Made by a program: the position numbers and the translations under genes. The notes below the pieces were generated by a model. That model saw only the letters and a list, made by a program, of their open reading frames with translations, was not told the DNA's origin and searched no databases. From assembly GCF_018389385.1 (NCBI RefSeq), contig NZ_CP062698.1, positions 3,294,667-3,318,666 on the forward strand: 24,000 nt of DNA, given 5' to 3'. This document shows positions 208 through 18,797 of the stretch, piece by piece. The DNA comes from Anthocerotibacter panamensis C109 (GTDB lineage: Bacteria > Cyanobacteriota > Cyanobacteriia > Gloeobacterales > Anthocerotibacteraceae). Position 1 is the first letter of the stretch. The number at the start of each line of letters is the position of its first letter.

Positions 208-303
208 GTGTTTGCGCTACTGGCCCGCTGGTTCCATAAATTTGTCTGTTTGCTGCTTCTGTTTATTTTTACGGGCAACCCCCTGACGGCAGTAGTCCAA
301 GCG
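208..303 (+). other. predicted Sec-type signal peptide of the Rhs protein
   Basis: N-terminus MFALLARWFHKFVCLLLLFIFTGNPLTAVVQA|AV has a basic n-region, a hydrophobic core and a VQA-A cleavage-like site. No PAAR, VgrG, LXG or TPS-type N-terminal domain recognised. Confidence 0.55.
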
Positions 304-3300
304 GCGGTCTATGTCCCGAGTGGTTTCTACTACTACGACACTCTAGACTTGGCGCTGGGCGGGCAGTATCCCCTCTTTGTATCCCGACATTACCAGAGTC
401 AATCAGCTAGCGGTGCTTCAGTTGCGGGGTTGGATGGTCCTTTTGGACCAGGGACGCACATGGGGCTCTACAGCCTCAGAGCAGAGGTGGTCAGCACTTT
501 CCGGGTGCGCCTATTCATGCCCACGGGCGACGAGCAAGCCTTTATCAGAGTCGGCGATGGCACCTATCGCAATGAGCGCTTGTCTGACCCCATCCAGGGG
601 ATTGTCCAAGTCAATGGCACGACCATCACGCTGACGATGGAGCGTGGGACCGTTCTGAGCTTCACCGCCTCTGGGAGTACGCGACAGCTCAACTCCATCC
701 AGGACCGCCTCGGCAAAGTTATCCGGTTTGAGTATGACCCTGGGGAGAGCCGTATTCGCAAGGTCATTGATCCTTTTGGGCGCTACATCCAATTCGAGTA
801 TCAGGCGGGGACCAACCGGGTGAGTGTGGCCCAACTCTACGCCGGGACCGATGGCTTCAATGACTGGTTTGTAAGCTACGAGTACGACGGGTCGGGGAAT
901 CTGGTCCGTTTTCATAACGTGATGGATGGTCAGTTTGCCTCCCGTGCCGATGGCAGTCAGACTGCGACCAATGGCGTGACGCAATATAGCTACAGCGGCA
1001 ATGCCCTCACGACCATCACCGGACCGAGGGGCTATGTGGTCCTGACCAATAGCTATGACGGCAATGGACGGATCATTCAGCAGCGCTTGCCGGGGGTCAA
1101 TAGCAGCACCAGTGCTGACGATGTGCTCACCACCTACAGCTATGGGACCAACAGTGCAACGCTGAGTAACCGAGACCAAGCAGGGGCATCGCGCTTTCCA
1201 ACAACGTTGACTTGGGACGGGGCAACGCAAAATATCACCCAAGCCAGGTCTGAGGTGGATGGAAGTACCAGCAACGCCACCTATGACCCCACCTACAACC
1301 TGATTGCCACCTACAAGAATGCGCTCAACCAGCAGACGACCTGGAATTACCAGTTAGACAGCAGTGGGACCTTCACTCGCCTATCTCGCATACAACAAAG
1401 TGACAGCAGTCAGACGAATTTTAGCTTCAATGGCTCCTTTGGGCGCATCAGTAGTGTGACCGATGAGCGCAATCAGACCACGAGCTTTACCTACCATGCG
1501 GCGGACCAGTCCTTTGGGCTCAATCAGGTCTCCTCGCCCCTGCCGCAGAACGATTTCTATCCCCAGTACAACAGCTACGGACAGCCCTTGCGCTACCAAG
1601 ACGGGCAGGGGCGGCAGGTTACCTACACCTATAACGACTATGTACCCTCGGGGACTGACCCCAACCCCAACACCCGCTTTCAGGATCTAGCCTCTATCAC
1701 GGACGGGTCGGGCGTGCAGGTGCGCCTGAGCTATGATGCGCTGTCGCGGCTGACTAGTTTGACCGATGCTACGGGCAATACTTGGACCTACAGCTATGAC
1801 CGGCTCGGGCGGGTGCTCCAGATTATTGCTCCCGGCAACCGCACCACCCGCTACACCTATGATGACCAGTCGAATCTGACGAGCCTCACGGCTCCCAATG
1901 GCGTCAAGACCACCTATACCTATGATGCTTTGGACCGGGTGGCAAGCCGCACCCAGAATGGGCGCACGGAGTCCTATGGGTACAACGAACTGGGGCAACT
2001 GACCAGCAGCACCGACCCGAAGGGGCAGGTGACGAGCTACACCTTTGACAGTAAGGGGCGTACCGCGACGGTCACTTTCAACAACCAATCCACCCTGAGC
2101 TACAGCTACAACACGCTGGACCAAGTCACCCAGATAACGGATAGCTCCGACCCTGCCGGGAGCAAGAATATTGCCTTTAGCTACAGCACAGCCAGTAATC
2201 AAATCAACCGGCTAGCGCAGGTGACGACCGCTCCAGGCACCACGAGTCAGGATAAGTTGAACTACGCTTACGATGCGGCAGGGAATCTGACCAAAGTCAC
2301 CCGCGAGGCTCCACCGCCCCAGGAGCCCTATGGGTTTATGGACTATGGCAACTGTCAAAATGCTGGAGGATGGGCCTATGACCCGGATAACCCTAGCGCA
2401 ATTCTGGGCATTAACTTTTATCTGGATGGCCCGAGAGGGTCCGGGACCTATTTCGCATCAACGCAAACGGGGCTGTACCGCTCGGACCTCCAAGCCAATT
2501 GGGGATTTAACTTCACCTACCCCACCCCATTCCAGGACAACAGAGCACACACTGTCTACGCCTATGCCGTCAAAAATGGGATAGAAACTCTCCTGAACAC
2601 GGACCCTCAAACTACCCCTGTTTGTGCAGCACCAGCCCCCCCACCCACTACCCTTAACTGCGCCAACTACCCACTCAGCTTGAGTATTGACGAGGGTAAT
2701 TACTTCCCCGTTGGCAACGCTACTTTCCGGTGGACAGCCCCCGGTACTCCTAATGGTTACTACATTCGGGTTCAGAATGCAGCTACCGGTGCTATCCGCT
2801 ATGACAGCTCGCTGGTGAGCTTCACGTCCACGATATTGAGTCTGTCGCTGGGGAATTATCTGCTGAGCGGTTCTGTCTGGCTCAATGCTCCCAATGTCAT
2901 AGGCGCAACTCCAGATGCCGGAGGCTCTCGGTGTCCTAGCACCACGCCTATTGCCTTCACTGTCTACCGGGAGAATCGCCCCCCCCTGCAAAGTCCACAA
3001 CCCTTAGTTCTCCAGAATAAGGCTGAGGCATCTCTGGCTCCTGTCGTGTCCCCAGCGCCCCAACCGGATGTACCCCAGGGACCACCCGTGCTGACGGATT
3101 TGCTGCGCTACAGCTACAAGAATGACAACAGTCTGGCGAGCGCCACCTTAGTAGGCAATGGCGATGGCGCGGACCTGACGGTGAGCTTCAACTATGACGC
3201 TTCCGGCTCGCTGACCAGTGTGAGCTACCCCAATGGCTTGACCGGCAACTACAGCTACACGCGCCCGAGCGGTTCTCCCAATGGCGATGTCCGGCAGGTG

Positions 3301-6300
3301 ACCTTTAGCGTCGGCAGTACCGGCTTGCGTCAGGTCACCTATAGCTATGACTACGATGCCAGCAGCACCACAGCGCGGGGATATCTGACCCAGCGCACGG
3401 AGAGTGGTCCCAATGTGCCAGCCATTGCCCAGGGTCAGCAGTTCAGCTACAACGCGGTCGGGGAGCTAACCAGCACGCAGACTACAGCGGGCAGCTACAC
3501 CAGTGCCTACGACCTAGACGGTAACCCCACCGCTATCACCAATGCTGGGGTGAATACGACCGCCACCTATGAAGCAGGTAGCAACCGGATGACCGGCTTT
3601 GGGGGTCGCACCATTCAGACGGATGCCAACGGTAATATCACTAACGATGGCATCAACCGCTATGAGTGGAATGCCCGTGATGAACTCATCACCATCCGCG
3701 ACCAGAGTAACAACATCAGGGCCACGTTTATCTATGACGCTCTGGGTCGCCGTATTCAGAAGACAGTCAATGGGATAACCACCCAGTTCACCTACAGTGG
3801 CAGTCAGGTCATTGAAGAAGTGACCAATGGGGTCAAGAAGCGCTACTTGGTCGGTTTAGGGCTTGATGCAGTCTATGCTAGCCGAACTAATGGCGCGGAT
3901 GAATATTTGCTCAGAGACGCCCTCAACGGTTCCATCATTGCTGTGGTTGCGGGGAGCAATTCTCCGTATGTGAAGACCGGCTATGGCTACACGCCCTTCG
4001 GTCAAGTTGTGACTTCGAGTATCAACACTCTTCTGAGTGCGGACATCCTGTGGCGCAACACTGCCAGCAATCAAGTTGCAGTTTGGTTGATGAATGGAGC
4101 TACCTTTTCTGCTTCCACCCCTATTTCATATTATGCAGACCAAAATTGGCAAGTAGCGGCGAGTGGAGACTTGAATCAGGATGGCAAAACCGACATTCTT
4201 TGGCGAAACCTAATCACCGGACAAAATGTGGCATGGCTACTTGATGGAACCGCCTATAAGGGCGACGGCCCCTTACCTACCGTTACAGACCTATCCTGGC
4301 ATATTGAAGGCATAGCAGACTTCAATGGCGACGGGAAAAACGACTTGCTGTGGCGCAATTACGCTTCAGGAGCAAACTCTATCTGGTTGATGGATGGGAC
4401 AACACCGATAAGCTATCCTTCCTTACCCTGGCCTGCGGTCGGGGATCTTAATTGGCACATTGAGGAAGCTGCCGACTTCACAGGGGATGGGCAGCCTGAT
4501 ATCCTGTGGCGCAACTACAGCACTGGGACAGTAAGCATTTGGGTGATGAATGGGTTGAACTTTGTCTACAGTATTGGTTTGCCTATTGCGCCTGATCCAG
4601 CTTGGAAAGTTGGTGGGGTTGGCGACTTCACCGGAGACGGGAAAACAGATATCCTTTGGCGCAACTATACCGGTGGCGATATCCATATTTGGGTGATGTC
4701 TGGAGTTACCTATACGACCAGCATCGTTCTGTCTCCAGTTACCGATTTGAATTGGCAAATTGCCAGTGCTGGCGACTTTGGAGGTCCTGGTAGTGTCCCA
4801 CCTAACAATCTAACCTTCACAGGGCGCGAAGACGACGGAACCGGCCTCATCTACTACCGCGCCCGCTACTATTCTCCCGACCTGCAACGCTTTATCGCAG
4901 AAGACCCCTTGGGTTTTGGTGGGGGCGACACCAATCTCTACCGCTATGTGGGTAATACCCCCCATCTCGCGGTAGACCCCAGTGGCCTCCAGCAAACAAA
5001 ATTAAGTCCTAAGCCTACCCCCAGAAAACAAAGCAATGTCACCACCCAAAGTAGCATTACCGCCCCTGGTCCGACGACCAACAATTCTTGTGGTGTGGTT
5101 GTGTTCGGACCCGTTACCGCCTCCGCCGCACAGGGTAACCAAGCCATTGGGACAGACCCCCCACCTTCGCCTAACGACACTATTTGCGGATTTAGTATAA
5201 CCATTGGGGTTGGCGGCGGCGGCGGTTTCGTCGTCGCACTACCTGGTCAGACCGTCGCTGCTGGGGGTTCAGTTTCCTACGTTCCCTTCACCTACTTTTG
5301 CAATGCTTCCACCCCCTGCCTGCCCGAGGCTTATATTCAACTGTCTCTGAGTGGACAGCCCGCCGATTGGGTGCAAAGTGCCACCGCGATACCCGGAAGG
5401 ACAACCTACAGCTTCAATCCGCCCAACGTGTTCCCCTCGCAGCAGCAGAGTAGCACCCTGACGATACGCACCGATGCCAGTACGCCGCCGAATACCTACA
5501 ATCTGACCATCGGTGGGACTACCATCAATGGACCGTCGGGGGTGCGCTCGATGTCCACCAGCCTGACGGTAACGCCCCCGACCACGCCCCCAAATACCCC
5601 AACCATCACCAGTGTGAGCAGTTTCAGTGCCCAAGTGGGACAGACAGTGACCCTCACAGGCAACAATCTAGGCAATGCCACGCAAGTGTGGTTTGGAGGA
5701 GTTCCAGCAGCGTTCACCCTCAATGTCTCGACCAATACAGTAACGGCGGCAGTGCCCCCGAATGCCCCCACGGCTCCAATCAGTGTGGTCACGGCGAGTG
5801 GGACAACGCAGACAGCGCAGAATTTTATGCCTACGAATGTTCCTACTGCTCCGAGGCGAGCACAGTTTGATTTGGGCATAGCGGCTCAACAGCTCCAGCA
5901 ATTCTACGAACGCAACCAAGATGCGCTTCAGGGCACGTTTAGCGCCTTGGGACAGGTTTTGAACGGTGGACTCACCGGAATCCTGGGTCTGCTTGAACTC
6001 AGTGGAGGTGCAGCACTACTGAACTACGCTAACCTTGAAGATGGCTCCCTGAGTGGTGCGGTAGCGGCAGCGGCAGCAGCAGACTTATTAGCGGTTGGTT
6101 CTACTACAGTCCTTGCTGGCAATGCTTTGGTAAATCAGGGCGTTAAAGGGTTGTTCGAGCAGCAGTATTATGCAGCTTCGCAAGGAGGTGGGCAGATATT
6201 TAATGTTAAGGGCATTGGAAACTTAGATCTCACATCTGGAGGTATTAATAACTTTATTTCTAAAAACGCTAATCGCTTTCAAAAAAAGTTAGGAGATAAG

Positions 6301-6537
6301 ATTGGTCAGGGGCGGTTACCCTTTGAGAAAGGGCGAGCAGGGTTTGATAAAGCCCTATCCATAATTGATCGAACCCTAAAGAATCCAACAGATGTCTTTG
6401 GTCCATTTACTTCAGCAAGAGGACAAAACACCGTGATCGATATATTTAGTAGAGAAACAGGTTTTACAGTCCGAATCCGAGCCGATGGGAGTTTTGACAC
6501 CCTAATTCCAGGGCCAACACGAGGAATAAGACCATGA
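208..6537 (+). CDS. Full-length Rhs/YD-repeat polymorphic toxin (main gene, 2109 aa) with signal peptide, accessory-domain insertions, Rhs core end and a 515-aa post-DPSGL extension ending in a small variable toxin domain
   Basis: Single 6.3-kb ORF. Many YD-repeat signatures (YEYDGSGNLV, YSYDRLGRV, YTYDALDRV, YGYNELGQL, YAYDAAGNL, FIYDALGRR). Rhs core-end block LTFTGREDDGTGLIYYRARYYSPDLQRFIAEDPLGFGGGDTNLYRYVGNTPHLAVDPSGL at 4810-4989. The stop overlaps the next ATG (ATGA at 6534-6537). Confidence 0.9.
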   Translation: MFALLARWFHKFVCLLLLFIFTGNPLTAVVQAAVYVPSGFYYYDTLDLALGGQYPLFVSRHYQSQSASGASVAGLDGPFGPGTHMGLYSLRAEVVSTFRVRLFMPTGDEQAFIRVGDGTYRNERLSDPIQGIVQVNGTTITLTMERGTVLSFTASGSTRQLNSIQDRLGKVIRFEYDPGESRIRKVIDPFGRYIQFEYQAGTNRVSVAQLYAGTDGFNDWFVSYEYDGSGNLVRFHNVMDGQFASRADGSQTATNGVTQYSYSGNALTTITGPRGYVVLTNSYDGNGRIIQQRLPGVNSSTSADDVLTTYSYGTNSATLSNRDQAGASRFPTTLTWDGATQNITQARSEVDGSTSNATYDPTYNLIATYKNALNQQTTWNYQLDSSGTFTRLSRIQQSDSSQTNFSFNGSFGRISSVTDERNQTTSFTYHAADQSFGLNQVSSPLPQNDFYPQYNSYGQPLRYQDGQGRQVTYTYNDYVPSGTDPNPNTRFQDLASITDGSGVQVRLSYDALSRLTSLTDATGNTWTYSYDRLGRVLQIIAPGNRTTRYTYDDQSNLTSLTAPNGVKTTYTYDALDRVASRTQNGRTESYGYNELGQLTSSTDPKGQVTSYTFDSKGRTATVTFNNQSTLSYSYNTLDQVTQITDSSDPAGSKNIAFSYSTASNQINRLAQVTTAPGTTSQDKLNYAYDAAGNLTKVTREAPPPQEPYGFMDYGNCQNAGGWAYDPDNPSAILGINFYLDGPRGSGTYFASTQTGLYRSDLQANWGFNFTYPTPFQDNRAHTVYAYAVKNGIETLLNTDPQTTPVCAAPAPPPTTLNCANYPLSLSIDEGNYFPVGNATFRWTAPGTPNGYYIRVQNAATGAIRYDSSLVSFTSTILSLSLGNYLLSGSVWLNAPNVIGATPDAGGSRCPSTTPIAFTVYRENRPPLQSPQPLVLQNKAEASLAPVVSPAPQPDVPQGPPVLTDLLRYSYKNDNSLASATLVGNGDGADLTVSFNYDASGSLTSVSYPNGLTGNYSYTRPSGSPNGDVRQVTFSVGSTGLRQVTYSYDYDASSTTARGYLTQRTESGPNVPAIAQGQQFSYNAVGELTSTQTTAGSYTSAYDLDGNPTAITNAGVNTTATYEAGSNRMTGFGGRTIQTDANGNITNDGINRYEWNARDELITIRDQSNNIRATFIYDALGRRIQKTVNGITTQFTYSGSQVIEEVTNGVKKRYLVGLGLDAVYASRTNGADEYLLRDALNGSIIAVVAGSNSPYVKTGYGYTPFGQVVTSSINTLLSADILWRNTASNQVAVWLMNGATFSASTPISYYADQNWQVAASGDLNQDGKTDILWRNLITGQNVAWLLDGTAYKGDGPLPTVTDLSWHIEGIADFNGDGKNDLLWRNYASGANSIWLMDGTTPISYPSLPWPAVGDLNWHIEEAADFTGDGQPDILWRNYSTGTVSIWVMNGLNFVYSIGLPIAPDPAWKVGGVGDFTGDGKTDILWRNYTGGDIHIWVMSGVTYTTSIVLSPVTDLNWQIASAGDFGGPGSVPPNNLTFTGREDDGTGLIYYRARYYSPDLQRFIAEDPLGFGGGDTNLYRYVGNTPHLAVDPSGLQQTKLSPKPTPRKQSNVTTQSSITAPGPTTNNSCGVVVFGPVTASAAQGNQAIGTDPPPSPNDTICGFSITIGVGGGGGFVVALPGQTVAAGGSVSYVPFTYFCNASTPCLPEAYIQLSLSGQPADWVQSATAIPGRTTYSFNPPNVFPSQQQSSTLTIRTDASTPPNTYNLTIGGTTINGPSGVRSMSTSLTVTPPTTPPNTPTITSVSSFSAQVGQTVTLTGNNLGNATQVWFGGVPAAFTLNVSTNTVTAAVPPNAPTAPISVVTASGTTQTAQNFMPTNVPTAPRRAQFDLGIAAQQLQQFYERNQDALQGTFSALGQVLNGGLTGILGLLELSGGAALLNYANLEDGSLSGAVAAAAAADLLAVGSTTVLAGNALVNQGVKGLFEQQYYAASQGGGQIFNVKGIGNLDLTSGGINNFISKNANRFQKKLGDKIGQGRLPFEKGRAGFDKALSIIDRTLKNPTDVFGPFTSARGQNTVIDIFSRETGFTVRIRADGSFDTLIPGPTRGIRP
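2302..3090 (+). other. about 263-aa non-YD insertion in the Rhs shell region: GWAxDxD-type beta domain, Pro-rich linker, Ig/FN3-like domain, Pro-rich linker
   Basis: YD periodicity stops after YAYDAAGNLTKVTRE and resumes at LLRYSYKNDNSLASA. The insert contains YGFMDYGNCQNAGGWAYDPDNPSAILGINFYLDG...RSDLQANWGFNF...HTVYAYAV, then PVCAAPAPPPTT, then a beta-rich segment (NATFRWTAPGTPNGYYIRVQN...IAFTVY), then a P/Q-rich linker. Confidence 0.5.
4042..4809 (+). repeat. five tandem ~50-aa FG-GAP/VCBS-like repeats inserted between the last YD repeat and the Rhs core-end motif
   Basis: Repeating unit GDFxGDGKxDILWRNxxxGxxxxWxMxG. The DILWRN/DLLWRN codons recur at about 4042, 4195, 4345, 4498 and 4651 (period ~150 nt). 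Flanked by YGYTPFGQVV upstream and NNLTFTGREDDGTGL downstream. Confidence 0.75.
4810..4989 (+). other. Rhs core C-terminal block ending in DPSGL (expected autoproteolysis/demarcation motif)
   Basis: LTFTGREDDGTGLIYYRARYYSPDLQRFIAEDPLGFGGGDTNLYRYVGNTPHLAVDPSGL. DPSGL is encoded at 4975-4989. Full or partial copies recur at 10926-11063, 12634-12748, 15235-15416 and 19447-19570. Confidence 0.85.
5236..5577 (+). other. Ig-like beta-sandwich linker domain (linker type B)
   Basis: ALPGQTVAAGGSVSYVPFTYFC...SSTLTIRTDASTPPNTYNLTIGGTTINGPSGVRSMSTSLTVTP. The pattern resembles CARDB/DUF11-like Ig folds. Copies occur in the cassettes at 9210-9338 (partial), about 12980-13325 and about 19817-20158. Confidence 0.4.
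5599..5832 (+). repeat. IPT/TIG-like Ig domain, copy 1 of 7
   Basis: PTITSVSSFSAQVGQTVTLTGNNLGNATQVWFGGVPAAFTLNVSTNTVTAAVPPNAPTAPISVVTASGTTQTAQNFMP. The P-x-I-x-S-V-S...G-x-x-V-T-L-x-G-x-N-L...V-x-F-G-G layout is typical of IPT/TIG domains. Confidence 0.6.
5860..6174 (+). other. Gly/Ala-rich hydrophobic pre-toxin segment type D1, ending in LFEQQYYA
   Basis: AQFDLGIAAQQLQQFYERNQDALQGTFSALGQVLNGGLTGILGLLELSGGAALLNY...AAAAAADLLAVGSTTVLAGNALVNQGVKGLFEQQYYA. LFEQQYYA is encoded at 6151-6174. Paralogous copy at 18177-18491. Confidence 0.6.
6196..6534 (+). other. variable C-terminal toxin domain of the main Rhs (family not recognised)
   Basis: Similarity to the paralogous cassette at 18177-18512 ends right after EQQYYAASQGGGQ. 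The unique ~113-aa tail ends ...VIDIFSRETGFTVRIRADGSFDTLIPGPTRGIRP. Confidence 0.5.
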
Positions 6538-7160
6538 CTAGAGAACCTCTTCAAAGTCCCATTGGATGGGCTGACCTAGAATGCCTTCTATCGTGTCAAG
6601 AGCTTTCTATTCAATCTTTATATGCACTCGTAAAGATTGTCCAGGATTATGGTTTCATTTTGTTAGGCAGTGAATCCTTGTTAGCGTATGGTGATGACCC
6701 AGTCACGCCTGAACAGGTGGTTCCTGCCGAAAGAGTTAAGGAGTTTATAGCAGCGTTAGATAATTTAAGCATACGACATTGTATACTAAATTTTACAGGA
6801 GTTCTAGTTGATGTTCGGACACCATTAAGTCTTATAGTCGATTTCTGCAATGCAGTTGTGGTTGTTAGCATTCCAGAAAATGCACTTTGGAACTTTATAG
6901 AAGATTTCAAGAAAGTAGATTTTAGAAAACTAGAATCTTTTGCTAAATTGTGTCATAAAATCGCTACGGAGATAAGAGCCATACGTGGCTATCTTGGAAC
7001 TGAAATGCTTCACAGGGAAGATATGAACCTAACGAGGGACTTACATGAAGTATCATCCCCTGTAGATGAAGCCTTCTTTTCTAAAGAAACTTTAAGAGGG
7101 CTTTTTGACTGGTATTTTGCCTATGTCTGTGGATTTAATATAGGGCACCTCGATAAATAG
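6534..7160 (+). CDS. putative cognate immunity protein of the main Rhs toxin; 3' end altered by IS insertion
   Basis: ATGA start/stop overlap with the Rhs gene. Visibly AT-richer than the toxin gene. The last 5 codons (GHLDK-stop, 7143-7160) are encoded by the IS terminal repeat. Removing the IS and one TATA copy restores ...CGFNIHTVQ-stop. Confidence 0.6.
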   Translation: MTREPLQSPIGWADLECLLSCQELSIQSLYALVKIVQDYGFILLGSESLLAYGDDPVTPEQVVPAERVKEFIAALDNLSIRHCILNFTGVLVDVRTPLSLIVDFCNAVVVVSIPENALWNFIEDFKKVDFRKLESFAKLCHKIATEIRAIRGYLGTEMLHREDMNLTRDLHEVSSPVDEAFFSKETLRGLFDWYFAYVCGFNIGHLDK

Positions 7161-8524: not shown

Positions 8525-8795
8525 AATCAATTCCTTGGTTTCTCCAATTTTCTCATTTAGCAGCTCGCTAGGCAATTAATCGAGGTGCCCTATACATACT
8601 GTACAGTAAATAAACTATATTATTTCTCCCTCGCTCTATTAGACATTAAGTATTTAACTCTAATATTGTAGGGAAAGGTGCGTTTGGGCTTCCATAAGGA
8701 ATTAGCAATGGGTAGCCAAGTTCAATTCTACTCTACATAACCTATCAAGACGAAATCAATTTCTAGAGGTAACTCGGGCCTCGCTTAATGCGTAT

Positions 8796-9209: not shown

Positions 9210-10241
9210 TGTAGCGCTCTGACGATTCGCACCGATGCCAGTACGCCTCCCAACATCTACAATCTGACGATTGGCGGGACTACGATTAATGGCCCGTCGG
9301 GGGTGCGCTCGATGTCCACCAGCCTGACGGTGACGCCCTCGACCACGCCACCAAATACCCCAACCATCACCAGTGTGAGCAGCTTTAATGCCCAAGTGGG
9401 ACAGACAGTGACCCTCACGGGCAACAATCTGGGCAATGCCACGCAAGTGTGGTTTGGAGGAGTTCCAGCAGCGTTCACCCTCAATGTCTCGACCAATACA
9501 GTAACGGCGGCAGTGCCCCCGAATGCCCCCACGGCTCCAATCAGTGTGGTCACCCCGAGTGGGACAACGCAGACAGCGCAGAATTTTGTGCCTGTGCAGG
9601 TGGCTGCGGCTACGGGGCAGGCACAGTTCAATTTGGGTATAGCGGCTCAACAGCAGGATGAGCAGTTTATCAACTTCTTAAGGCAACGCTCCGTTGAGTA
9701 TGATAATCGGGTAGCGGGGCCAGCAGATTTATTTGACATAAACTACTACCTCCTTTTGAATAGGTTAAGAACTGTTCGCTCTATGCTTACTGGTAACCTT
9801 AAGGGGAGCAATATTGCAGTTGCATCAGCAAGTTTTAACGATCGAGCGCCACGTTTCTACATTGCATTGAGTGGTCAAAAGGATCTATCTACAGACCAGC
9901 TTGGAAAATTAGATATTGGTCCTGAAGAGTATGCAGGACTTGCAAAAATTGCTATCCGATATTTTAATGGAGGAATGGTTCCCAGGATAAATAGTAAAAC
10001 AGGAGAATTTAGGTTAGGTGAAAATGGCTCCATATTAATTCGAGAATCACAGTATGACTCAGAGCAAAAAATCCTTGAACAAGTTAGGATAGAGCTTTTA
10101 GCTGATCCAGCCTTAACTGGAACGGTTCGTATCCTAAGTGAGTATAAGTATTGTCCTGGTTGTTTGCGGAGCATTTCTAAGTTTGAAAAGGATTTTCCGC
10201 TACGTGTTAATCTTAAAGTTTATGACGCGGTAGGAAGATAA
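9210..10241 (+). pseudogene. orphan Rhs C-terminal cassette 2, 5'-truncated inside the Ig-like linker; TIG domain plus deaminase-like toxin domain
   Basis: Homology to the main gene begins abruptly at about 9211 (SALTIRTDASTPPNIYNLTIGG, compare 5452 onward), directly after an in-frame TAA. TIG copy at 9360-9593. Diverges from the D1 segment after AQFNLGIAAQQ (about 9654). The tail contains FYIALSGQ...YDSEQKILEQV-(x)-YKYCPGCLRSISKF. Confidence 0.7.
9360..9593 (+). repeat. IPT/TIG-like domain, copy 2
   Basis: PTITSVSSFNAQVGQTVTLTGNNLGNATQVWFGGVPAAFTLNVSTNTVTAAVPPNAPTAPISVVTPSGTTQTAQNFVP. Near-identical DNA to 5599-5832. Confidence 0.6.
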
Positions 10242-10958: not shown

Positions 10959-12191
10959 TTGCGTGGCGAAGCCATAGACCCTCTCGGCTTTGGGGGTGGC
11001 GACACCAACCTCTATCGCTATGTGGGTAATGCCCCCCATCTCGCGGTAGACCCCAGTGGACTCCAGCAAACAAAATCAAGTCCTACCCTCAACCCTAATC
11101 CCACCCCTAGCCGTGAAGTTATGCTCTCCGAAGTACCAGGGGCTACTACGGCTGGAGCCTGTGATTTTCTATTCAGTGCCGAGCCAGTACAGACAAATCT
11201 CACTACCTGTACCTGCGATTCATTTGATCGGTGCTTTGAGTGTCAGACAGAAGGCTTTTGCACTCAAGTTTGTGGACCAGGAACAATATTTAGCTGTGGG
11301 GGCGGGGTTCTTCCTCCAGGTGGCGGTGGGGGCGGCGGCGGAACGTTCCCGACTATCAGCAGTGTGAGCAGTTTCAGTGCCCAAGTGGGTCAGACGGTGA
11401 CACTCACGGGCAACAATTTGGGCAATGCCACGCAAGTACGGTTTGGGGGTATCCCCGCAGCGTTCACGGTCAATGCCGCGAATGGTCAAGTGACAGCAAC
11501 AGTGCCGCCGGGTGCATCAACGGGTCTTATCTGTGTGGTCACCCCGAGTGGGACAGCACAGACAGCGCAGAATTTTGTGCCTGTGCAGGTGGCTGCGGCC
11601 CTACGCCAAGCACAATCTGCTCTAGCGAATGTCGCTGACCAGCTCTTGCAGGGATTGACCAGCCGGGATTTCCTGGAGAGTGTGGCTAATGGGGCAGATA
11701 TTGCAGGGAATGCAGCAGGAGCCTTGGCACTTATCCTTGGCGCAGAAGGTACAGGTACAACACTCACGGGTGTTGGAGCGCTCATTGGGGTGCCAAGCTT
11801 GGCTGGAGCAGTGGGTGCAACTGGAGTATCTGTCATTGCCAAGGGGAGTGCAACTTTGATTAGGGGGTTATTGGAGCAGCAGTACTATGCGGCTAAGGCT
11901 AAGGTTGATATTTTGAAGCCTGGGGGAAATCCAATTGGTAGAGCAGGGAGTAGCCCTGAAATACGAGAACTAACGGGTGATCAGACGGATGCGTTAAACC
12001 TTTTTATGGAATTGATTGAAGGGGGTACTGAGGTTCCTACTCCAAATTTTAAGGGATTTCGTTTCAAAATTCCCGGTGACGGAACTGTACAGATCAGAGA
12101 TTTTGCATCCAAGAGTCCCAATACGAATGCTACAATAGACGTTAAGCTGAAAAGCGTTCCTGACATTGAAAAACTCAAGTTTAACCCCTAA
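10959..12191 (+). CDS. orphan Rhs C-terminal cassette 3 (no credible own start): core end, Cys-rich/poly-Gly linker, TIG, D2 hydrophobic segment, ~100-aa toxin
   Basis: In-frame homology starts upstream of the ORF-track TTG, at about 10926 (SPDLQRFISDSLRGEAIDPLGFGGGDTNLYRYVGNAPHLAVDPSGL). DPSGL at 11049-11063. Poly-Gly at 11319-11342. TIG at 11349-11582. LLEQQYYA at 11868-11891. Unique tail to 12188. Confidence 0.8.
   Translation: MRGEAIDPLGFGGGDTNLYRYVGNAPHLAVDPSGLQQTKSSPTLNPNPTPSREVMLSEVPGATTAGACDFLFSAEPVQTNLTTCTCDSFDRCFECQTEGFCTQVCGPGTIFSCGGGVLPPGGGGGGGGTFPTISSVSSFSAQVGQTVTLTGNNLGNATQVRFGGIPAAFTVNAANGQVTATVPPGASTGLICVVTPSGTAQTAQNFVPVQVAAALRQAQSALANVADQLLQGLTSRDFLESVANGADIAGNAAGALALILGAEGTGTTLTGVGALIGVPSLAGAVGATGVSVIAKGSATLIRGLLEQQYYAAKAKVDILKPGGNPIGRAGSSPEIRELTGDQTDALNLFMELIEGGTEVPTPNFKGFRFKIPGDGTVQIRDFASKSPNTNATIDVKLKSVPDIEKLKFNP
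11349..11582 (+). repeat. IPT/TIG-like domain, copy 3
   Basis: PTISSVSSFSAQVGQTVTLTGNNLGNATQVRFGGIPAAFTVNAANGQVTATVPPGASTGLICVVTPSGTAQTAQNFVP. Confidence 0.6.
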
Positions 12192-12643: not shown

Positions 12644-14272
12644 TTGCGTGGCGAAGCCATAGACCCCCTGGACTTTGGGGGTGGCGACACCAACCTCTAC
12701 CGCTATGTGGGTAATACCCCGCATCTCGCGGTGGACCCCAGTGGACTCCAGCAGAGAAAATTAAGTCCTACGCCTGCCCCCAGAAAACAAAGCAACATTA
12801 CCGCCCCTCCTGCTGCGACCAACGATAGTTGTGTGGCCTTTTTTGGCTCTGTTACTCCTTCCTCTGGCCTCAATGACCAACCAACTCTGGTAGACCCGCC
12901 TGCTACCAATATCACTATTAGCTGTACCTGTGACCCGCTTTGCTTTGACATCAGAATTGGTGTGGGCGGCCCTCCGCCCACGGGTTTACCCGGTCAGACC
13001 GTGGCTGCCGGGGGCTCGACTTCCTACGTGCCCTTCACCTACTTTTGCAATGCTTCCACCCCCTGCCTGCCCGAAGCCTATATTCAACTGTCCTTGAGTG
13101 GACAGCCCGCTGATTGGGTGCAAAGTGCTACCGCGATACCCGGAAGGACAACCTACAGTTTCAATCCACCCAATGTCTATCCTTCGCAGCAGCAAAGTAG
13201 CACACTGACGATCCGCACCGATGCCAGTACGCCTCCCAACATCTACAACCTGACGATTGGCGGGACTACGATTAATGGCCCGTCGGGGGTGCGCTCAATG
13301 CCCACCAGTCTGACGGTGACGCCTTCGACCACGCCCCCAAACACACCGAGCATCAGCACGGTGAGCAGCTTTAGTGCCCAAGTGGGTCAGACGGTGACGC
13401 TCACAGGCAACAATTTGGGCAGTGCCACGGAAGTATGGTTTGGCGGTGTCCCAGCCGCCTTCACCGCGAATGTCTCGACCAATCAAGTGACGGCGACCAT
13501 CCCGCCGAATGCCCCCACGGCTCCAATCAGTGTGGTCACGGCGAGTGGGACAACGCAGACAGCACAGAATTTTGTGCCTACGAATGTTCCTACTGCTCCG
13601 AGGCGAGCGCAGTTCAACTTGGGAGTTGCGGCAGGGCAATTACGCAATGCAATCGTTGACTTTCCTGGAGTTCGTGGGTTTGCTACATTCACCTCGGGAG
13701 CCTATGACTTTGCTTCATTTGGCCTTACCGCTGCATTACGTGGAGGGTTGAATAGCCTTACCCAGGTCAGTGACCCAATTAATACAAGCTCCGGTCTGTA
13801 TCGTGCAGGTCAAGTCGCTGGTCTAGCGGCATCGTTTGTATTAGGGACTGGTGAAGCAGGATTAATTGCTGAAGTTGAAGAAGGAGTATCGGGTATAGGT
13901 CGAGTAGCTGAAGTTGTAGGAGGGCGAACTCGACCTAGTTTTTATGTGACGCCGGGAGGTACCGTAGTACCCAGCGTTACTCCTGCTGGTATAGAAGTTT
14001 CAGCGGAGGCAGCTTTTCGTTTAGGAGAAGGAAGATTCAACGAAGCTTTGACTTTAGAGAATCTTGATGTCTTAATAGAAAGAGGAGAGAAGTTCATCGA
14101 AGATAATGGAAACTTAGTTCGTCGGCTACCTGCTTCAGGCGTAGGTGTACCTAGCAGGTCTGGGCGTTCTTTCATTGAAGCGATCCTTGATCCAATAGGG
14201 AGACGTATTATCACCATCATTCGCCGACAAAGACCGCTTCCCCCTGGGCGCTTTACACAGGTTAATCCATGA
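12644..14272 (+). CDS. orphan Rhs C-terminal cassette 4 (no credible own start): core end, Ig-like linker, TIG, ~215-aa unique C-terminal region
   Basis: Homology begins at 12634 with the same junction as cassette 3 (SDSLRGEAIDPLDFGGGDTNLYRYVGNTPHLAVDPSGL). DPSGL at 12734-12748. TIG at 13346-13579. Diverges after AQFNLGVAAGQ (about 13640) and has no EQQYYA motif. Confidence 0.8.
   Translation: MRGEAIDPLDFGGGDTNLYRYVGNTPHLAVDPSGLQQRKLSPTPAPRKQSNITAPPAATNDSCVAFFGSVTPSSGLNDQPTLVDPPATNITISCTCDPLCFDIRIGVGGPPPTGLPGQTVAAGGSTSYVPFTYFCNASTPCLPEAYIQLSLSGQPADWVQSATAIPGRTTYSFNPPNVYPSQQQSSTLTIRTDASTPPNIYNLTIGGTTINGPSGVRSMPTSLTVTPSTTPPNTPSISTVSSFSAQVGQTVTLTGNNLGSATEVWFGGVPAAFTANVSTNQVTATIPPNAPTAPISVVTASGTTQTAQNFVPTNVPTAPRRAQFNLGVAAGQLRNAIVDFPGVRGFATFTSGAYDFASFGLTAALRGGLNSLTQVSDPINTSSGLYRAGQVAGLAASFVLGTGEAGLIAEVEEGVSGIGRVAEVVGGRTRPSFYVTPGGTVVPSVTPAGIEVSAEAAFRLGEGRFNEALTLENLDVLIERGEKFIEDNGNLVRRLPASGVGVPSRSGRSFIEAILDPIGRRIITIIRRQRPLPPGRFTQVNP
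13346..13579 (+). repeat. IPT/TIG-like domain, copy 4
   Basis: PSISTVSSFSAQVGQTVTLTGNNLGSATEVWFGGVPAAFTANVSTNQVTATIPPNAPTAPISVVTASGTTQTAQNFVP. Confidence 0.6.
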
Positions 14273-14876: not shown

Positions 14877-16590
14877 AACAACAATTACTGGCTGCGGGGC
14901 CAGGCGCAAGGTCAGTTTATTCAACAATGGACGGTCAGTAATAGCAACTGGGCGGACCTTACCAGCGATGTGCCCCAACAATTGGCGAATGGTCGGGTAG
15001 ATGTTGTCTTCACCAATGACTATGCTGATTCAACGGCGGACCGTAATCTGCTTGTCGATACAGTAAATATCCATGGCAATGTTATTGCTGCACAAAGTAG
15101 TGCAGTCTATTACGATACGGGCGATCCTTTTGACGGAGTGTATGTGGGGTCAGGGGTCAACTTTGCCGGATGCCCTGTAGGGACAGGTGCATGTTTTCAA
15201 GGCGCTCTCCGATTCACTCCCGGCAGCACCAACAATCTGACCTTCACAGGGCGCGAAGACGATGGGACGGGACTCATCTACTACCGCGCCCGCTACTATT
15301 CTGCCGACCTGCAACGCTTTATCGCAGAAGACCCCCTCGGTTTTGGGGGTGGCGACACCAACCTCTATCGCTATGTGGGTAATGCCCCCCATCTCGCGGT
15401 AGACCCCAGTGGACTCCAGCAAACAAAATCAAGTCCTACCCTCAACCCTAATCCCGCCCCTAGCCGTGAATTTACCCTCGCCGAAGTACCAGGGGCTACT
15501 ACGGCTGGAGCCTGCGATTTTCTATTCAGTGCCGAGCCAGTACAGACAAATCTCACTACCTGTACCTGCGATTCATTTGGCAGGTGCTACGAGTGTCAGA
15601 TAGAAGGCTTTTGCACTCAGGTTTGTGGACCAGGAACAATATTTAGCTGTGGGGGCGGGGTTCTTCCTCCAGGTGGCGGTGGGGGCGGCGGCGGCGGTGG
15701 AACCCTCCCAAGTATCAGCGGGGTCAGCAGCTTCAGTGCGCAGGTAGGAACGGATATCACGATTTCGGGTAGTAACCTGAGCAATGCGACAGCAGTACGC
15801 TTCGGGAATGTCCCAGCTGCGTTCACCCTCAATGTCTCGACCAATGCAGTGACAGCGGCAGTGCCCCCGAATGCCCCCACGGCTCCTATCAGTGTGGTCA
15901 CCCCGAGTGGGACAACGCAGACAGCGCAGAACTTTGTGCCTGTGCAGGTGGCTACGGGCCCTACGCCAAGCACAATCTGCTCTAGCGAATGTCGCTGACC
16001 AGCTCTTGCAGGGATTGACCAGCCGAGATTTCCTGGAGAGTGTAGCTAATGGGGCAGATGCTACAGGGAATGCCCTTTACGGATTTTCTGTAATTGCTGG
16101 TGTTTTTGGAGCAGGTAGCTCATCTACAGGGGGCGGTGCCATCGTTGGCGTACCTGCTTTGGCGATAGCAGGTGGCGCTGTAGTGGCTGGGGCAGGGCTC
16201 AAGTCTAGTGCTGCGAATATCAGAGGGATCTTGGAGCAGCAGTACTATGCGGCTGGCGGCAAGGCAGCAAATGAAGTTGGAAGGCTTAGAGTAGAAAAAG
16301 TAGTAGAATTAACAGGTGGAACAGCTTCTGGAGAAAAAGTTTCAGTGAAAACACTTGGAAGCACAGACCTGGATGTGATTGGCCCTAGCGGAGAACTCAT
16401 TTCTGTTGGTGGTCCTGCTAAAGCAGGTAACCTGGGAAATTTTGTTAGAGAATTGAGGATTTACCAAGCTATTGCATCACAAAGAGGAGTTTACGTTAAA
16501 GCATACTTAGCAGAAGGGACGCCTCAATCAGCAATCGATAAGGCAATACGTGAATTGGGAGAAAAAAATGTATTTATCTTTACTCCATGA
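14877..16590 (+). pseudogene. orphan Rhs C-terminal cassette 5, 5'-truncated and frameshifted: CBM-like domain fragment, complete core end, Cys-rich/poly-Gly linker, TIG, D2 segment, toxin
   Basis: Open frame from 14877, after TAA TAG. RVDVVFTNDYADSTADRNLLVDTVNIHG is followed by NNLTFTGREDDGTGLIYYRARYYSADLQRFIAEDPLGFGGGD...DPSGL (15402-15416). Poly-Gly at 15672-15701. TIG at 15708-15941. An extra G in ACGGGCCC (15956-15958; the paralog at 20426-20431 has ACGGCCC) shifts the frame. The product continues in the ORF 15871-16590 frame (ALRQAQSALANVADQ...ILEQQYYA at 16228-16251). Confidence 0.75.
15708..15941 (+). repeat. IPT/TIG-like domain, copy 5 (most diverged)
   Basis: PSISGVSSFSAQVGTDITISGSNLSNATAVRFGNVPAAFTLNVSTNAVTAAVPPNAPTAPISVVTPSGTTQTAQNFVP. 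Confidence 0.6.
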
Positions 16591-18035: not shown

Positions 18036-18149
18036 CTCAATGTCTCGACCAATGCAGTGACGGCGACCATCCCCCCGAATGCCCCCACGGCTCCAATCAG
18101 TGTGGTCACCCCGAGTGGGACGGCACAGACAGCGCAGAATTTTATGCCT
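18036..18149 (+). repeat. IPT/TIG-like domain, copy 6 (C-terminal half only)
   Basis: LNVSTNAVTATIPPNAPTAPISVVTPSGTAQTAQNFMP. The N-terminal half of the domain is absent. Confidence 0.6.
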
Positions 18150-18797
18150 GTGCAGGTGGCTGCGGCTACGGGGCAAGCGCAGTTTGATTTGCGCATAGCG
18201 GCTCAACAGCTCCAGCAATTCTACGAAAATAACCAAGATGCAATCCAGGGCACGTTTAGCGCCTTGGGACAGATTTTGAACGGTGGACTCACCGGAATCC
18301 TAGGTCTGATTGAACTCAGTGGAGGTGCGGCACTACTGAACTACGCTAACTTTGAAGATGGCTCCCTTAGTGGTGCGGCAGCGGCAGCAGCAGCTACAGA
18401 CTTATTAGCGGTTGGCTCTGCTACAGTCGTTGCTGGCAGTGCCGTGGTGAATCAGGGTGTCAAGGGGTTGTTCGAGCAGCAGTTCTATGCGGCTTTGCAA
18501 GGAGGTGGGCAAAGTTCCATAAAGACTTTTGGACAGGATTTAAAAAATATTCGCGAGGTAGCAACTGGACGGCTCAAGGGTTTTTCTAGGGGAAACACAA
18601 CCCTTCCGAGAGGGGATCAAGGTGCTCGAGATCTATTTGAAAAGCTTACTGGAACCCCCCCTACAGGAGATTTTGACCGTGCTATTCTACAAGATGGGCG
18701 AGAGATTGTATTCAGAGCAATCAGTAGATCTGGACCAGCTAAAATTGAAGTGGTTGATCCCCTGCAAAGTTTTTTGGAAAAAATTTCTTTTCCTTAG
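18036..18797 (+). pseudogene. orphan Rhs C-terminal cassette 6, 5'-truncated inside the TIG domain; D1 segment plus ~95-aa toxin
   Basis: Homology starts at LNVSTNAVTATIPPNAPTAPISVV (18036), 6 codons after an in-frame TAA. D1 copy at 18177-18491 with LFEQQFYA at 18468-18491. Diverges from the main gene after QGGGQ (18513). Confidence 0.7.

What the first reader, a model, noticed from the sequence alone, without database searches (positions are those of the whole stretch)
5599..6174. Conserved post-DPxGL module (TIG domain plus glycine-zipper-like hydrophobic segment) ending in an invariant EQQ(Y/F)YA toxin boundary
In canonical Rhs proteins the variable toxin starts right after DPxGL. Here 400-500 conserved residues intervene, and the real variability break sits at G(L/I)(L/F)EQQ(Y/F)YA. 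The motif is seen five times:
- 6151-6174 LFEQQYYA
- 11868-11891 LLEQQYYA
- 16228-16251 ILEQQYYA
- 18468-18491 LFEQQFYA
- 20699-20722 LLEQQFYA

Sequence downstream of each is unrelated, apart from main and c6, which also share AA(S/L)QGGGQ. The motif is preceded by Gly/Ala-rich hydrophobic stretches, for example GNAAGALALILGAEGTGTTLTGVGALIGVPSLAGAVGAAGVSVIAKG and GGLTGILGLLELSGGAALL...LLAVGSTTVLAG. These look like membrane-inserting glycine-zipper helices. The arrangement resembles the entry/translocation domain plus VENN-type boundary of CdiA, rather than an Rhs.

The post-DPSGL polypeptide of the main gene is 515 aa. That is large compared with the CT toxins usually encapsulated by Rhs shells. 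So either cleavage or encapsulation differs, or the extension is threaded out. This is my best candidate for an undescribed delivery module.
Basis: partly seen in the sequence, partly recalled or inferred. Interest (0 to 1): 0.8.

Follow-up and report, generated by a model that had tools for sequence, protein, structure and literature searches.

The report
Lineage-specific pre-toxin junction in Rhs array
A cyanobacterial Rhs toxin gene and its spare toxin cassettes share a long extension after the usual Rhs cleavage site, which in most cassettes ends in a short motif (G-L/I-L/F-EQQ-Y/F-YA) marking where the swappable toxin begins; the boundary is real, but it occurs in only one genome and there is no good evidence that it is a membrane-crossing delivery device.

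Summary
The motif occurs five times in frame at the stated coordinates (0 expected by chance), and sequence downstream is unrelated each time. The window is a toxin array from Anthocerotibacter panamensis: one 2109-aa Rhs gene plus six partial spare ("orphan") toxin cassettes, here c2–c7 by position, each followed by a putative immunity gene.

After DPSGL come a Pro/Thr linker, a beta-rich region (two variants), a confident TIG domain, a helical Gly/Ala-rich connector (subtypes D1, D2, D3), the motif, then a 99–123-aa toxin.

A cross-genome test supports the boundary: a metagenomic homologue of the c7 toxin aligns from 2 residues after EQQFYA but follows a different connector.

Three corrections:
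- The motif is not the only break. c2 and c4, and two further modules elsewhere in the genome, diverge right after TIG and lack the motif. Two of them (a deaminase and an REase-7 toxin) have no hydrophobic segment.
- A profile search of 1.84 billion proteins and DNA-pattern scans of three collections found the connector and motif in no other genome.
- Transmembrane character is marginal and the structure model there is unreliable.

Best reading: a lineage-specific pre-toxin adaptor and cassette joint in a multi-tier Rhs system. The 52.9-kDa post-cleavage polypeptide exceeds the 15–30 kDa cargos reported for Rhs and Tc cocoons; this is unexplained.

The parts
208..6537 (+). Main Rhs gene (2109 aa): hydrophobic N-terminal leader (signal-peptide-like by eye), DUF6531, YD repeats, FG-GAP propeller, Rhs core, post-DPSGL extension, toxin
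4903..4989 (+). Rhs aspartyl-autoprotease motif DPLGFGGGDTNLYRYVGNTPHLAVDPSGL (aa 1566-1594); predicted cleavage after L1594
   Evidence: sequence; TIGR03696 match ends at aa 1594; cleavage is inferred from the family
4990..5598 (+). Pro/Thr/Ser-rich linker plus beta-rich 'A1' region (aa 1595-1797). c3 and c5 carry a shorter Cys/Gly-rich 'A2' region instead
   Evidence: AlphaFold predicts all-beta but pLDDT is 21-38
5599..5826 (+). TIG/IPT domain (aa 1798-1873), present in the main gene and all six orphan modules of the window (c6 retains only its C-terminal part)
   Evidence: Pfam PF20144/PF01833; pLDDT 70-90; alignment
5827..6147 (+). Connector D2 (aa 1874-1980): helix AQFDLGIAAQQLQQFYE, then two Gly/Ala-rich hydrophobic stretches
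   Evidence: predicted helical at pLDDT 27-37; dN/dS 0.36 against c6
6148..6174 (+). Junction motif GLFEQQYYA (aa 1981-1989), a 27-nt DNA island conserved across connector subtypes
6175..6537 (+). Toxin of the main gene (120 aa, no family match)
6534..7160 (+). Putative immunity gene of the main toxin (acidic, overlaps the stop codon by 4 nt)
9303..10241 (+). Orphan c2: TIG, short connector GIAAQQQDEQFINFLRQ, deaminase toxin (PF14424). No Gly/Ala-rich segment and no motif. DNA homology to the main gene starts at 9211
10959..12191 (+). Orphan c3: core tail, A2, TIG, D1, GLLEQQYYA (11865-11891), toxin; immunity candidate 12207-12557
12644..14272 (+). Orphan c4: core tail, A1, TIG, a different connector ('D4' type), toxin. 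No motif. Immunity candidate 14269-14772
14970..16590 (+). Orphan c5 (frameshifted near the end of TIG): CBM60-like region, core tail, A2, TIG, divergent D1, GILEQQYYA (16225-16251), toxin; immunity candidate 16587-16997
18057..18797 (+). Orphan c6: partial TIG, D2, GLFEQQFYA (18465-18491), toxin; immunity candidate 18809-19180
19421..21094 (+). Orphan c7: core tail, A1, TIG, D1, GLLEQQFYA (20696-20722), toxin; immunity candidate 21101-21481

Best explanation
This is an Rhs polymorphic-toxin locus of Anthocerotibacter panamensis: one full-length gene followed by same-strand orphan modules, each with its own putative immunity gene. Here c2–c7 are the orphans in window order; D1–D3 are subtypes of the Gly/Ala-rich connector that ends in the motif, and D4 is a different connector without it.

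The C-terminal region is built in tiers. After the DPSGL autoprotease site come a Pro/Thr-rich linker, an optional beta-rich region (A1 or A2), a TIG domain, one of several alternative connectors, and the toxin. G-[LI]-[LF]-E-Q-Q-[YF]-Y-A is the C-terminal end of one connector class (D1/D2/D3). It is the in-frame joint at which 99-123-aa toxins are attached.

Shown:
- The motif lies 1-2 residues before the start of an independently mobile toxin domain.
- The motif belongs to the connector, not to the toxin.
- The connector is under purifying selection.
- The motif is conserved down to synonymous codon positions as a ~27-nt island between otherwise diverged flanks.

Inferred:
- The island and the longer upstream homology blocks (core tail, TIG, connector) let homologous recombination fuse the expressed gene to a downstream orphan, or reshuffle toxins among connector subtypes. 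Functionally this resembles VENN in CdiA and DPxGL in ordinary Rhs genes.
- At the protein level the motif probably caps the last connector helix ahead of a short Gly/Pro/Ser linker.

The connector is a lineage-specific pre-toxin adaptor. It is not demonstrably a membrane translocator.
For: Identity and layout:
- Protein P0001 is identical to the c5 module, and all hits come from one 4.19-Mb A. panamensis genome.
- YD repeats, the Rhs core and the DPxGL pair are present.
- The orphans share DNA blocks with the main gene that start at different depths: main-gene positions 4799, 4860, 4902, 5450 and 5718.
- The tiered mosaic is visible in the alignment.

The boundary:
- There are five motif hits against 0 expected.
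- The c7 toxin is 48% identical (E = 5e-38) to a toxin on metagenome contig L030. The homology starts 2 residues after EQQFYA. The L030 copy is preceded by a different connector.
- The c5 and P0009 toxins resemble each other (by eye) from about 7-8 residues after the motif.

Selection and DNA conservation:
- Connector dN/dS is 0.19-0.38, with dS up to 0.77.
- The GGG, GAG, CAG, CAG and TAT codons are identical in all five copies. By my hand calculation from the codon usage, P is about 3e-4 if the copies represent three independent lineages.
- Cross-subtype DNA identity is confined to the block from -9 to +17 around the first E codon.

Structure: AlphaFold places the motif at the end of helix 160-202, followed by 18 residues of coil, at low confidence.
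Against: - A 27-nt island is at the lower limit for RecA-dependent recombination.
- A simple deletion that fuses the main gene to an orphan does not need the island at all.
- The five copies are not independent, so the codon statistics are only suggestive.
- No recombinant has been observed.
- Conservation between diverged flanks could equally reflect a protein function, such as a processing or recognition site.
- Nothing here shows expression, cleavage or toxicity.
Confidence: 0.55

Rival explanations
1. The Gly/Ala-rich connector is a glycine-zipper helical hairpin that inserts into the target-cell membrane and carries the toxin across. EQQ(Y/F)YA is a VENN-like boundary. Together they form a new delivery module.
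For: - Each connector has two uncharged or weakly charged hydrophobic stretches of 19-30 aa, with Kyte-Doolittle maxima of 1.6-2.05.
- [GAS]xxx[GAS]xxx[GAS] patterns occur 4-11 times per connector.
- The connectors are predicted helical and are under purifying selection.
- The toxins attached to them are small (99-123 aa). One is a CdiA_C tRNase (P0006), which has to reach the cytoplasm.
- Glycine-zipper helices are membrane-active in other interbacterial toxins (PMC5380434, PMC12744356, PMC11630599).
Against: - Summed Hessa values are +2.8 to +5.6 kcal/mol, which is not membrane-spanning grade.
- Acidic residues lie inside the D2 stretches.
- Soluble-looking immunity candidates in the same window reach the same Kyte-Doolittle values, 1.64-1.69.
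- pLDDT is 27-37.
- There is no Pfam or PDB relative.
- c2 (deaminase) and P0014 (REase-7) act on nucleic acids yet have no hydrophobic connector.
- The c7 toxin family is delivered with a different connector in another organism.
Confidence: 0.2
2. The motif is a proteolytic processing or release site. The toxin is cut from the TIG-connector stalk at or after EQQ(Y/F)YA, by a producer or target protease or by self-cleavage, as has been proposed for other pre-toxin domains.
For: - The motif is strictly conserved between diverged flanks.
- It lies 1-2 residues before the toxin domain.
- It is followed by a short Gly/Pro/Ser-rich linker.
- PT-TG has been hypothesised to be a cleavage substrate (PMC13483458), and pre-toxin domains in general to be processing sites (PMC3482391).
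Against: - No protease domain or known cleavage motif was found in the module.
- P0006 tolerates loss of one Q (EQYYA).
- Modules without the motif would need a different release route.
- Conservation at synonymous sites is not explained by a protein-level site.
Confidence: 0.15
3. The motif has no function of its own. It is the inherited end of one ancestral connector block that spread within this genome by duplication and gene conversion. Toxins were joined there by chance events.
For: - The connector and motif were found only in A. panamensis. The searches covered 1.84 billion representatives of about 15 billion proteins, and three DNA collections.
- Synonymous positions in the motif are identical.
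- Two other branch points exist in the same array.
Against: - D1, D2 and D3 have diverged to about 37% identity, with saturated synonymous change around a perfectly kept island.
- At least 8 toxin sequences, most of them unrelated, start within a few residues of the same point.
- Chance joins would not be expected to reuse one codon-precise site.
Confidence: 0.1

Closest known systems
Rhs / YD-repeat polymorphic toxins with orphan toxin-immunity arrays (Enterobacteria, Bacillus WapA; structures of RhsA, Tse5, Rhs1)
   Same: - YD repeats.
- An Rhs-associated core with the DPxG-x20-DPxGL aspartyl-protease pair.
- Variable C-terminal toxins followed by small acidic immunity candidates.
- Same-strand orphan modules that keep a piece of the core for recombination.
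   Different: - The toxin starts 386 aa (long form) or about 267 aa (short form) after DPSGL, not right after it.
- The post-cleavage fragment is 38-53 kDa, against 15-16 kDa cargos in 32,000-35,000 cubic-angstrom cocoons (PMC10684867) and about 30 kDa in Tc toxins (PMC8765631).
- There are three nested exchange tiers.
- An FG-GAP propeller is inserted in the core.
- The protein has a hydrophobic N-terminal leader (signal-peptide-like by eye) and no PAAR or VgrG-binding domain in the Pfam scan.
CdiA pre-toxin region with the VENN motif (PF04829) and a cytoplasm-entry domain
   Same: A short, strictly conserved peptide motif marks the switch from conserved to variable sequence. It is conserved at the DNA level in orphan cassettes, and the toxin follows it closely.
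   Different: - There is no PF04829 match, no TPS or FHA-repeat domains and no CdiB.
- In CdiA the entry domain lies after VENN and varies together with the toxin. Here the hydrophobic segment lies before the motif and is shared among different toxins.
PT-TG pre-toxin domain (PF14449)
   Same: It is a poorly structured, low-confidence segment placed between trafficking domains and toxins in many architectures. Those architectures include ones with bacterial Ig-like domains (PMC13483458).
   Different: PF14449 does not match any connector, even at E <= 1. PT-TG is widespread: 10,226 proteins in the genomes surveyed by that paper. This connector occurs in one genome.
Teneurins and bacterial teneurin-like proteins (TLPs)
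   Same: A YD shell combined with a beta-propeller. In metazoan teneurins the chain leaves the shell after the core plug and carries folded domains outside it (from my own knowledge of the teneurin structures; PMC5851990 was listed but not read here). That is a possible precedent for the Ig/TIG stalk here.
   Different: - No FN-plug or NHL domain was detected.
- The propeller is of the FG-GAP type and lies inside the core region.
- Bacterial TLP C-terminal domains average about 15 kDa and lie inside the shell (PMC13018210).
- Both catalytic Asp motifs are intact here, unlike in metazoan teneurins.
Metagenomic relative P0015 / contig L030 (JGI 3300020201)
   Same: The same unusual build: an FG-GAP propeller inside the Rhs core, DPTGL, a Pro-rich linker, a beta-rich region, TIG, a helix plus Gly-rich connector, and orphan toxin-immunity pairs. 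It also carries a homologue of the c7 toxin, its immunity gene and a Tpt1/KptA gene.
   Different: It uses only the D4-type connector (…VDYNSGAYxGGQIAGF…). It has no EQQ(Y/F)YA motif.

Membership tests
Rhs / YD-repeat polymorphic toxin | Multiple YD/RHS repeats | tested here: met
   PF05593 E = 1.5e-46 with 9 stretches; TIGR01643 E = 9e-36
Rhs / YD-repeat polymorphic toxin | Rhs-associated core ending in PxxxxDPxGL, with a second DPxG about 20 residues upstream (the aspartyl autoprotease) | tested here: met
   TIGR03696 E = 1.4e-18, ending at aa 1594; sequence DPLGFGGGDTNLYRYVGNTPHLAVDPSGL
Rhs / YD-repeat polymorphic toxin | The variable toxin begins directly after DPxGL | tested here: not met
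   386 aa (main gene) or about 267 aa (c3, c5) of shared sequence separate DPSGL from the motif
Rhs / YD-repeat polymorphic toxin | Toxin followed by a cognate immunity gene; orphan toxin-immunity cassettes downstream on the same strand | tested here: met
   Seven modules, each followed by a small acidic ORF with pI 4.4-5.0. The function of these ORFs was not tested.
Rhs / YD-repeat polymorphic toxin | Autoproteolysis at DPxGL and encapsulation of the C-terminal fragment in the cocoon | not testable with these tools
   The fragment is 52.9 kDa, against published cocoon cargos of 15-30 kDa (PMC10684867, PMC8765631)
CdiA PT-VENN pre-toxin | Match to PF04829 / a VENN motif | tested here: not met
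   No hit at E <= 1 on the connectors or at E <= 0.1 on whole proteins
CdiA PT-VENN pre-toxin | Two-partner secretion context (TPS domain, FHA repeats, CdiB) | tested here: not met
   The Pfam domains of the main protein are DUF6531, RHS, FG-GAP and TIG only. No CdiB-like ORF is in the window.
PT-TG pre-toxin (PF14449) | Match to PF14449 | tested here: not met
   No hit on D1, D2, D3 or D4 connectors
Glycine-zipper membrane helices | Repeated GxxxG(xxxG) on a helix hydrophobic enough to span a membrane | tested here: inconclusive
   Strict GxxxG occurs 1-5 times per connector. Kyte-Doolittle maxima are 1.6-2.05 but Hessa sums are +2.8 to +5.6 kcal/mol. No Gly-zipper Pfam family matches. pLDDT is 27-37. 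No dedicated transmembrane predictor was available.
IPT/TIG domain | Match to the TIG profile and a beta-sandwich model | tested here: met
   PF01833 E = 4.6e-9 (c3); PF20144 E = 1.9e-5 (main gene); pLDDT 70-90 with 7-8 strands
Bacterial teneurin-like protein | FN-plug + NHL propeller + YD shell superfold | tested here: not met
   No NHL or FN-plug Pfam hit. The propeller is FG-GAP and is placed inside the core. Tested by sequence only.

The most novel reading that the evidence does not exclude
This Rhs protein does not encapsulate its payload. After cleavage at DPSGL, the Pro/Thr linker threads out of the shell. The 38-53-kDa C-terminal polypeptide then acts as a self-contained, bacteriocin-like unit. 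It would have a binding part (beta-rich region plus TIG), a membrane-active helical Gly/Ala connector, and a small enzyme toxin released at EQQ(Y/F)YA. That would be an undescribed mode of Rhs toxin presentation, so far seen only in a deep-branching, thylakoid-less cyanobacterium and one metagenomic relative. The near-constant post-TIG length (204-236 aa in 12 modules) would then reflect a capacity limit of the delivery step.
Probability: 0.12. Interest if true: 0.75.

Novelty: new variant of a known kind. Interest (0 to 1): 0.4.

Why it matters
- **Variable boundary.** It shows that the variable boundary of an Rhs toxin can lie far downstream of DPxGL. One locus can exchange its C-terminal region at several nested levels, which matters for automated calling of toxin domains.
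- **Cargo size.** It gives a concrete case where the post-cleavage cargo (38-53 kDa, including a well-modelled TIG domain) is larger than any cargo reported inside an Rhs or Tc cocoon. A single cryo-EM or mass-spectrometry experiment could show whether such Rhs proteins display rather than enclose their toxin.
- **Limit on generality.** The motif itself occurs in only one genome, so its general significance is limited until more Gloeobacterales genomes are available.

Tried and rejected
- **Pfam and NCBIfam on the connectors and toxins.** Only TIG, a deaminase (c2), CdiA_C (P0006) and Tox-REase-7 (P0014) were recognised. Nothing matched D1-D3.
- **Word-indexed homologue search with the connector profile.** I therefore repeated it as an exhaustive HMMER search, which gave 7 hits, all from the same genome.
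- **DNA pattern for G-[LI]-[LF]-EQQ-[YF]-YA.**
  - 16 hits in species-representative genomes: 14 at the start of the C-terminal domain of a TolA-like protein, mostly in Desulfobulbaceae MAGs, plus two unrelated proteins.
  - 13 hits in metagenomes, none in a toxin context.
  - 0 hits in viral contigs.
  - The genome scan did not return the window's own genome, so that collection does not hold it or masks it.
- **PDB sequence search with the connector profile.** No meaningful hit.
- **Two AlphaFold runs.** Only TIG was confident. I did not run fold searches because the connector, toxin and A1 models are below a usable confidence.
- **The look-up of encoding contigs for P0002, P0005 and P0006.** Not on record, so the rest of the array outside the window could not be read.
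- **Search with the D4-type connector.** It recovered only the L030 ORFs and one short metagenomic protein, P0040.
- **Considered and rejected: the connector is itself an ionophore toxin.** The same D1 connector is paired with different small immunity candidates that are acidic and look soluble, and no membrane immunity protein is present.
Full report
**Naming.** 'Main' is the full-length Rhs gene (208-6537). c2–c7 are the six orphan modules downstream, numbered in window order. A1 and A2 are the two alternative regions between DPSGL and TIG. D1, D2 and D3 are subtypes of the Gly/Ala-rich connector that ends in the motif. D4 is a different connector that lacks the motif.

**What is at the coordinates.**
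- The window carries a 2109-aa ORF (208-6537, + strand), followed on the same strand by a series of shorter ORFs.
- The degenerate DNA pattern for EQQ(Y/F)YA matches five times, all in frame on the + strand, at 6157, 11874, 16234, 18474 and 20705. None of 100 dinucleotide-preserving shuffles gave a match.
- Translations show G-[LI]-[LF]-EQQ-[YF]-YA in each case. Downstream sequence is unrelated, except that main and c6 also share AA(S/L)QGGGQ.
5599 is the first residue of the TIG match (aa 1798) and 6174 is the last base of the motif.

**Source and gene family.**
- A database protein (P0001) is identical to the module at 15964-16590. Every close hit comes from the single 4.19-Mb genome of Anthocerotibacter panamensis, a thylakoid-less, early-branching cyanobacterium (PMC12107172).
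- The large protein has a hydrophobic N-terminal leader that looks like a signal peptide (by eye; one search prints it). It also has DUF6531, nine or more RHS repeats, four FG-GAP repeats and an Rhs-associated core that ends at aa 1594.
- The core carries the full aspartyl-protease pair, DPLG-x20-DPSGL. This is an Rhs polymorphic toxin.
- Each module is followed by a small acidic ORF (pI 4.4-5.0), the usual position of an immunity gene.

**Anatomy of the region after DPSGL.** Self-comparison and alignment show a tiered mosaic rather than one conserved block.
- Tier 1 is a Pro/Thr/Ser-rich linker plus either a ~200-aa beta-rich region (A1: main, c4, c7, part of c2) or a shorter Cys/Gly-rich region (A2: c3, c5).
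- Tier 2 is a TIG domain present in the main gene and all six orphans (c6 keeps only its C-terminal part). It matches Pfam at E = 4.6e-9 to 1.9e-5 and has AlphaFold pLDDT 70-90.
- Tier 3 is a connector that starts with a shared helix ((R)QAQ(F/S)xL..AAxQ) and then takes one of several forms:
  - D2 in main and c6;
  - D1 in c3 and c7, and a divergent D1 in c5;
  - D3 in two further modules elsewhere in the genome (P0005, P0006);
  - D4 in c4 and P0012;
  - a short form, GIAAQQQDEQFI(N/E)FLRQ, in c2 and P0014.
- Only D1, D2 and D3 end in the motif. D1 and D2 are 37% identical (E = 1e-8).
- Tier 4 is the toxin. Toxins after the motif are 99-123 aa long.
- The distance from DPSGL to the motif is 386 aa in the main gene and about 267 aa in c3 and c5, not 400-500.
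- The post-DPSGL polypeptide is 515 aa (52.9 kDa) in the long form and 375-389 aa (about 38 kDa) in the short form.

**Is the motif a true module boundary?** Yes.
- The c7 toxin has a homologue on a metagenomic contig (L030). It is 48% identical (E = 5e-38), and the alignment begins two residues after EQQFYA.
- Upstream of that point the L030 protein carries a D4-type connector instead. The toxin is therefore a mobile unit, and the motif belongs to the connector side.
- The c5 toxin and the toxin of P0009, another D1 module from the same genome, resemble each other by eye from about 7-8 residues after the motif.
- However, the motif is not the only break. c2, c4, P0012 and P0014 branch directly after the TIG helix.

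**Distribution.**
- An exhaustive HMMER search with the connector profile ran against 1.84 billion cluster representatives of about 15 billion proteins. It gave 7 hits, all from A. panamensis.
- The DNA pattern for the 9-residue motif found 16 loci in a collection of 185,579 species genomes. Fourteen encode a TolA-like protein, mostly in Desulfobulbaceae MAGs, and two encode other unrelated proteins.
- The same pattern found 13 loci in metagenomes, none in a toxin context, and none in viral contigs.
- The genome collection did not return the window's own genome. The negative result therefore applies to other species only, and Gloeobacterales are thinly sampled.
- The broader build does recur once outside this genome, in P0015/L030. 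That build is the FG-GAP propeller inside the core, DPxGL, linker, beta-rich region, TIG, Gly-rich connector and toxin.
- The D4 connector resembles a segment of a further metagenomic protein, P0040.

**Constraint on the connector and motif.**
- Connector pairs give dN/dS of 0.19-0.38 with dS up to 0.77, similar to TIG at 0.11-0.31. The connector is therefore a selected protein segment, not free linker.
- Between subtypes, DNA identity collapses on both sides of a ~27-nt island: GGG NTN YTS GAG CAG CAG TWY TAT GCR (GCT).
- Within the island, the codons GGG, GAG, CAG, CAG and TAT are identical in all five copies, although local codon usage is nearly even.
- The probability of such agreement is about 1e-7 for five independent copies. 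By my hand calculation from the same codon usage it is about 3e-4 for three independent lineages.
- This points to conservation or homogenisation at the DNA level as well. It fits a role as a recombination joint, but the copies are related and the island is short, so this remains suggestive.

**Membrane-helix claim.**
- Each connector has two Gly/Ala-rich hydrophobic stretches. Kyte-Doolittle 19-residue maxima are 1.6-2.05.
- Two soluble-looking immunity candidates in the window reach 1.64 and 1.69, so this threshold does not discriminate here.
- Unweighted Hessa sums for the best 19-23-residue windows are +2.8 to +5.6 kcal/mol. Strict GxxxG occurs 1-5 times per connector.
- AlphaFold predicts helices throughout, with the motif at the C-terminal end of the last helix followed by an 18-residue coil. 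However, pLDDT is only 27-37.
- No Pfam or PDB relative exists.
- The deaminase module (c2) and the REase-7 module (P0014) lack any hydrophobic connector.
- The c7 toxin family travels with a different connector in L030.
- The segment is thus not a general requirement for delivery. A membrane-active helper role for small toxins is not excluded, but it is not supported.

**Size problem.**
- Published Rhs cocoons enclose 32,000-35,000 cubic angstroms and hold 15-16-kDa toxins (PMC10684867). Tc cocoons hold about 30 kDa (PMC8765631). Bacterial teneurin-like proteins carry C-terminal domains of about 15 kDa inside the shell (PMC13018210).
- A 52.9-kDa fragment would occupy about 63,000 cubic angstroms at typical protein density (my estimate). 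It includes at least one well-modelled beta-sandwich.
- The roughly 35-residue Pro/Thr-rich segment right after DPSGL is the kind of sequence that could thread through a gap, as in metazoan teneurins. That comparison is from my own knowledge and is inference only.
- All 12 modules for which I have sequence are 204-236 aa long from the end of TIG to the C-terminus, whatever the connector type. I cannot explain this regularity.

**Verdict.**
- The interpretation as a new membrane-translocation module is not supported.
- The most economical reading is a lineage-specific pre-toxin adaptor and cassette joint inside a multi-tier Rhs polymorphic-toxin system, which makes it a new variant of a known kind.
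- The oversized, domain-bearing post-cleavage region is the part most worth an experiment.

Noticed in passing
window ~4000-4800 (aa ~1290-1525 of the main protein); also P0015 / L030:1431-3440: An FG-GAP beta-propeller (PF01839/PF13517, E about 5e-28) is inserted inside the Rhs-associated core. GYGYTPFGQV precedes it and NNLTFTGREDDGTGLIYYRARYY…DPSGL follows it. TIGR03696 matches only HMM positions 13-76. The same insertion is present in the metagenomic relative.
   Followed up: partly
window 20723-22041; L030:4354-5740: The c7 toxin, its immunity candidate and a Tpt1/KptA RNA 2'-phosphotransferase gene (PF01885, E = 1.8e-34; overlaps the immunity gene by 4 nt) form a trio. The trio recurs on the metagenomic contig: toxin 48% identical, immunity 28%, KptA 38%. 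This hints that KptA is functionally linked to this toxin family.
   Followed up: partly
all modules: window plus P0005, P0006, P0009, P0012, P0014: The length from the end of TIG (QTAQNF) to the C-terminus is 204-236 aa in all 12 modules. This holds whether the connector is ~105-116 aa with a small toxin, or ~25 aa with a large toxin. It may reflect a size constraint, but it is unexplained.
   Followed up: partly
window 7272-8575 (- strand): An IS5-family insertion sequence (DUF772 plus DDE_Tnp_1, split into two 209-aa ORFs) lies between the main immunity gene and orphan c2. The homology of c2 to the main gene starts only at 9211.
   Followed up: partly
window 14970-16590: Orphan c5 is frameshifted near the end of TIG (ORFs 14970-15998 and 15871-16590). 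It begins with a CBM60-like segment (PF16841, E = 2e-7) where the main gene has the FG-GAP propeller. It looks like a remnant of a different parent Rhs gene.
   Followed up: partly
window 9303-10241 and protein P0014: There is a second junction type. GIAAQQQDEQFI(N/E)FLRQ is shared by two modules and is followed by unrelated toxins: a BURPS668_1122-type deaminase and Tox-REase-7.
   Followed up: partly
window ~2350-3010 (aa ~715-935 of the main protein): A non-YD insert in the middle of the repeat region (GWAYDPDNP…, then an Ig-like-looking stretch) has no Pfam match.
   Followed up: partly
window 22247-23081: A 113-aa ORF that looks like the tail of another toxin (…IQFVERGGQVITIIAK) is followed by an overlapping 167-aa ORF. 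This is possibly an eighth, truncated toxin-immunity pair. Neither has a family match.
   Followed up: no
L001-L016 and L020, L027: The peptide G(V/I)LEQQYYA also starts the C-terminal domain of a TolA-like protein, mostly in Desulfobulbaceae MAGs. The context is unrelated, so this looks like coincidence.
   Followed up: yes
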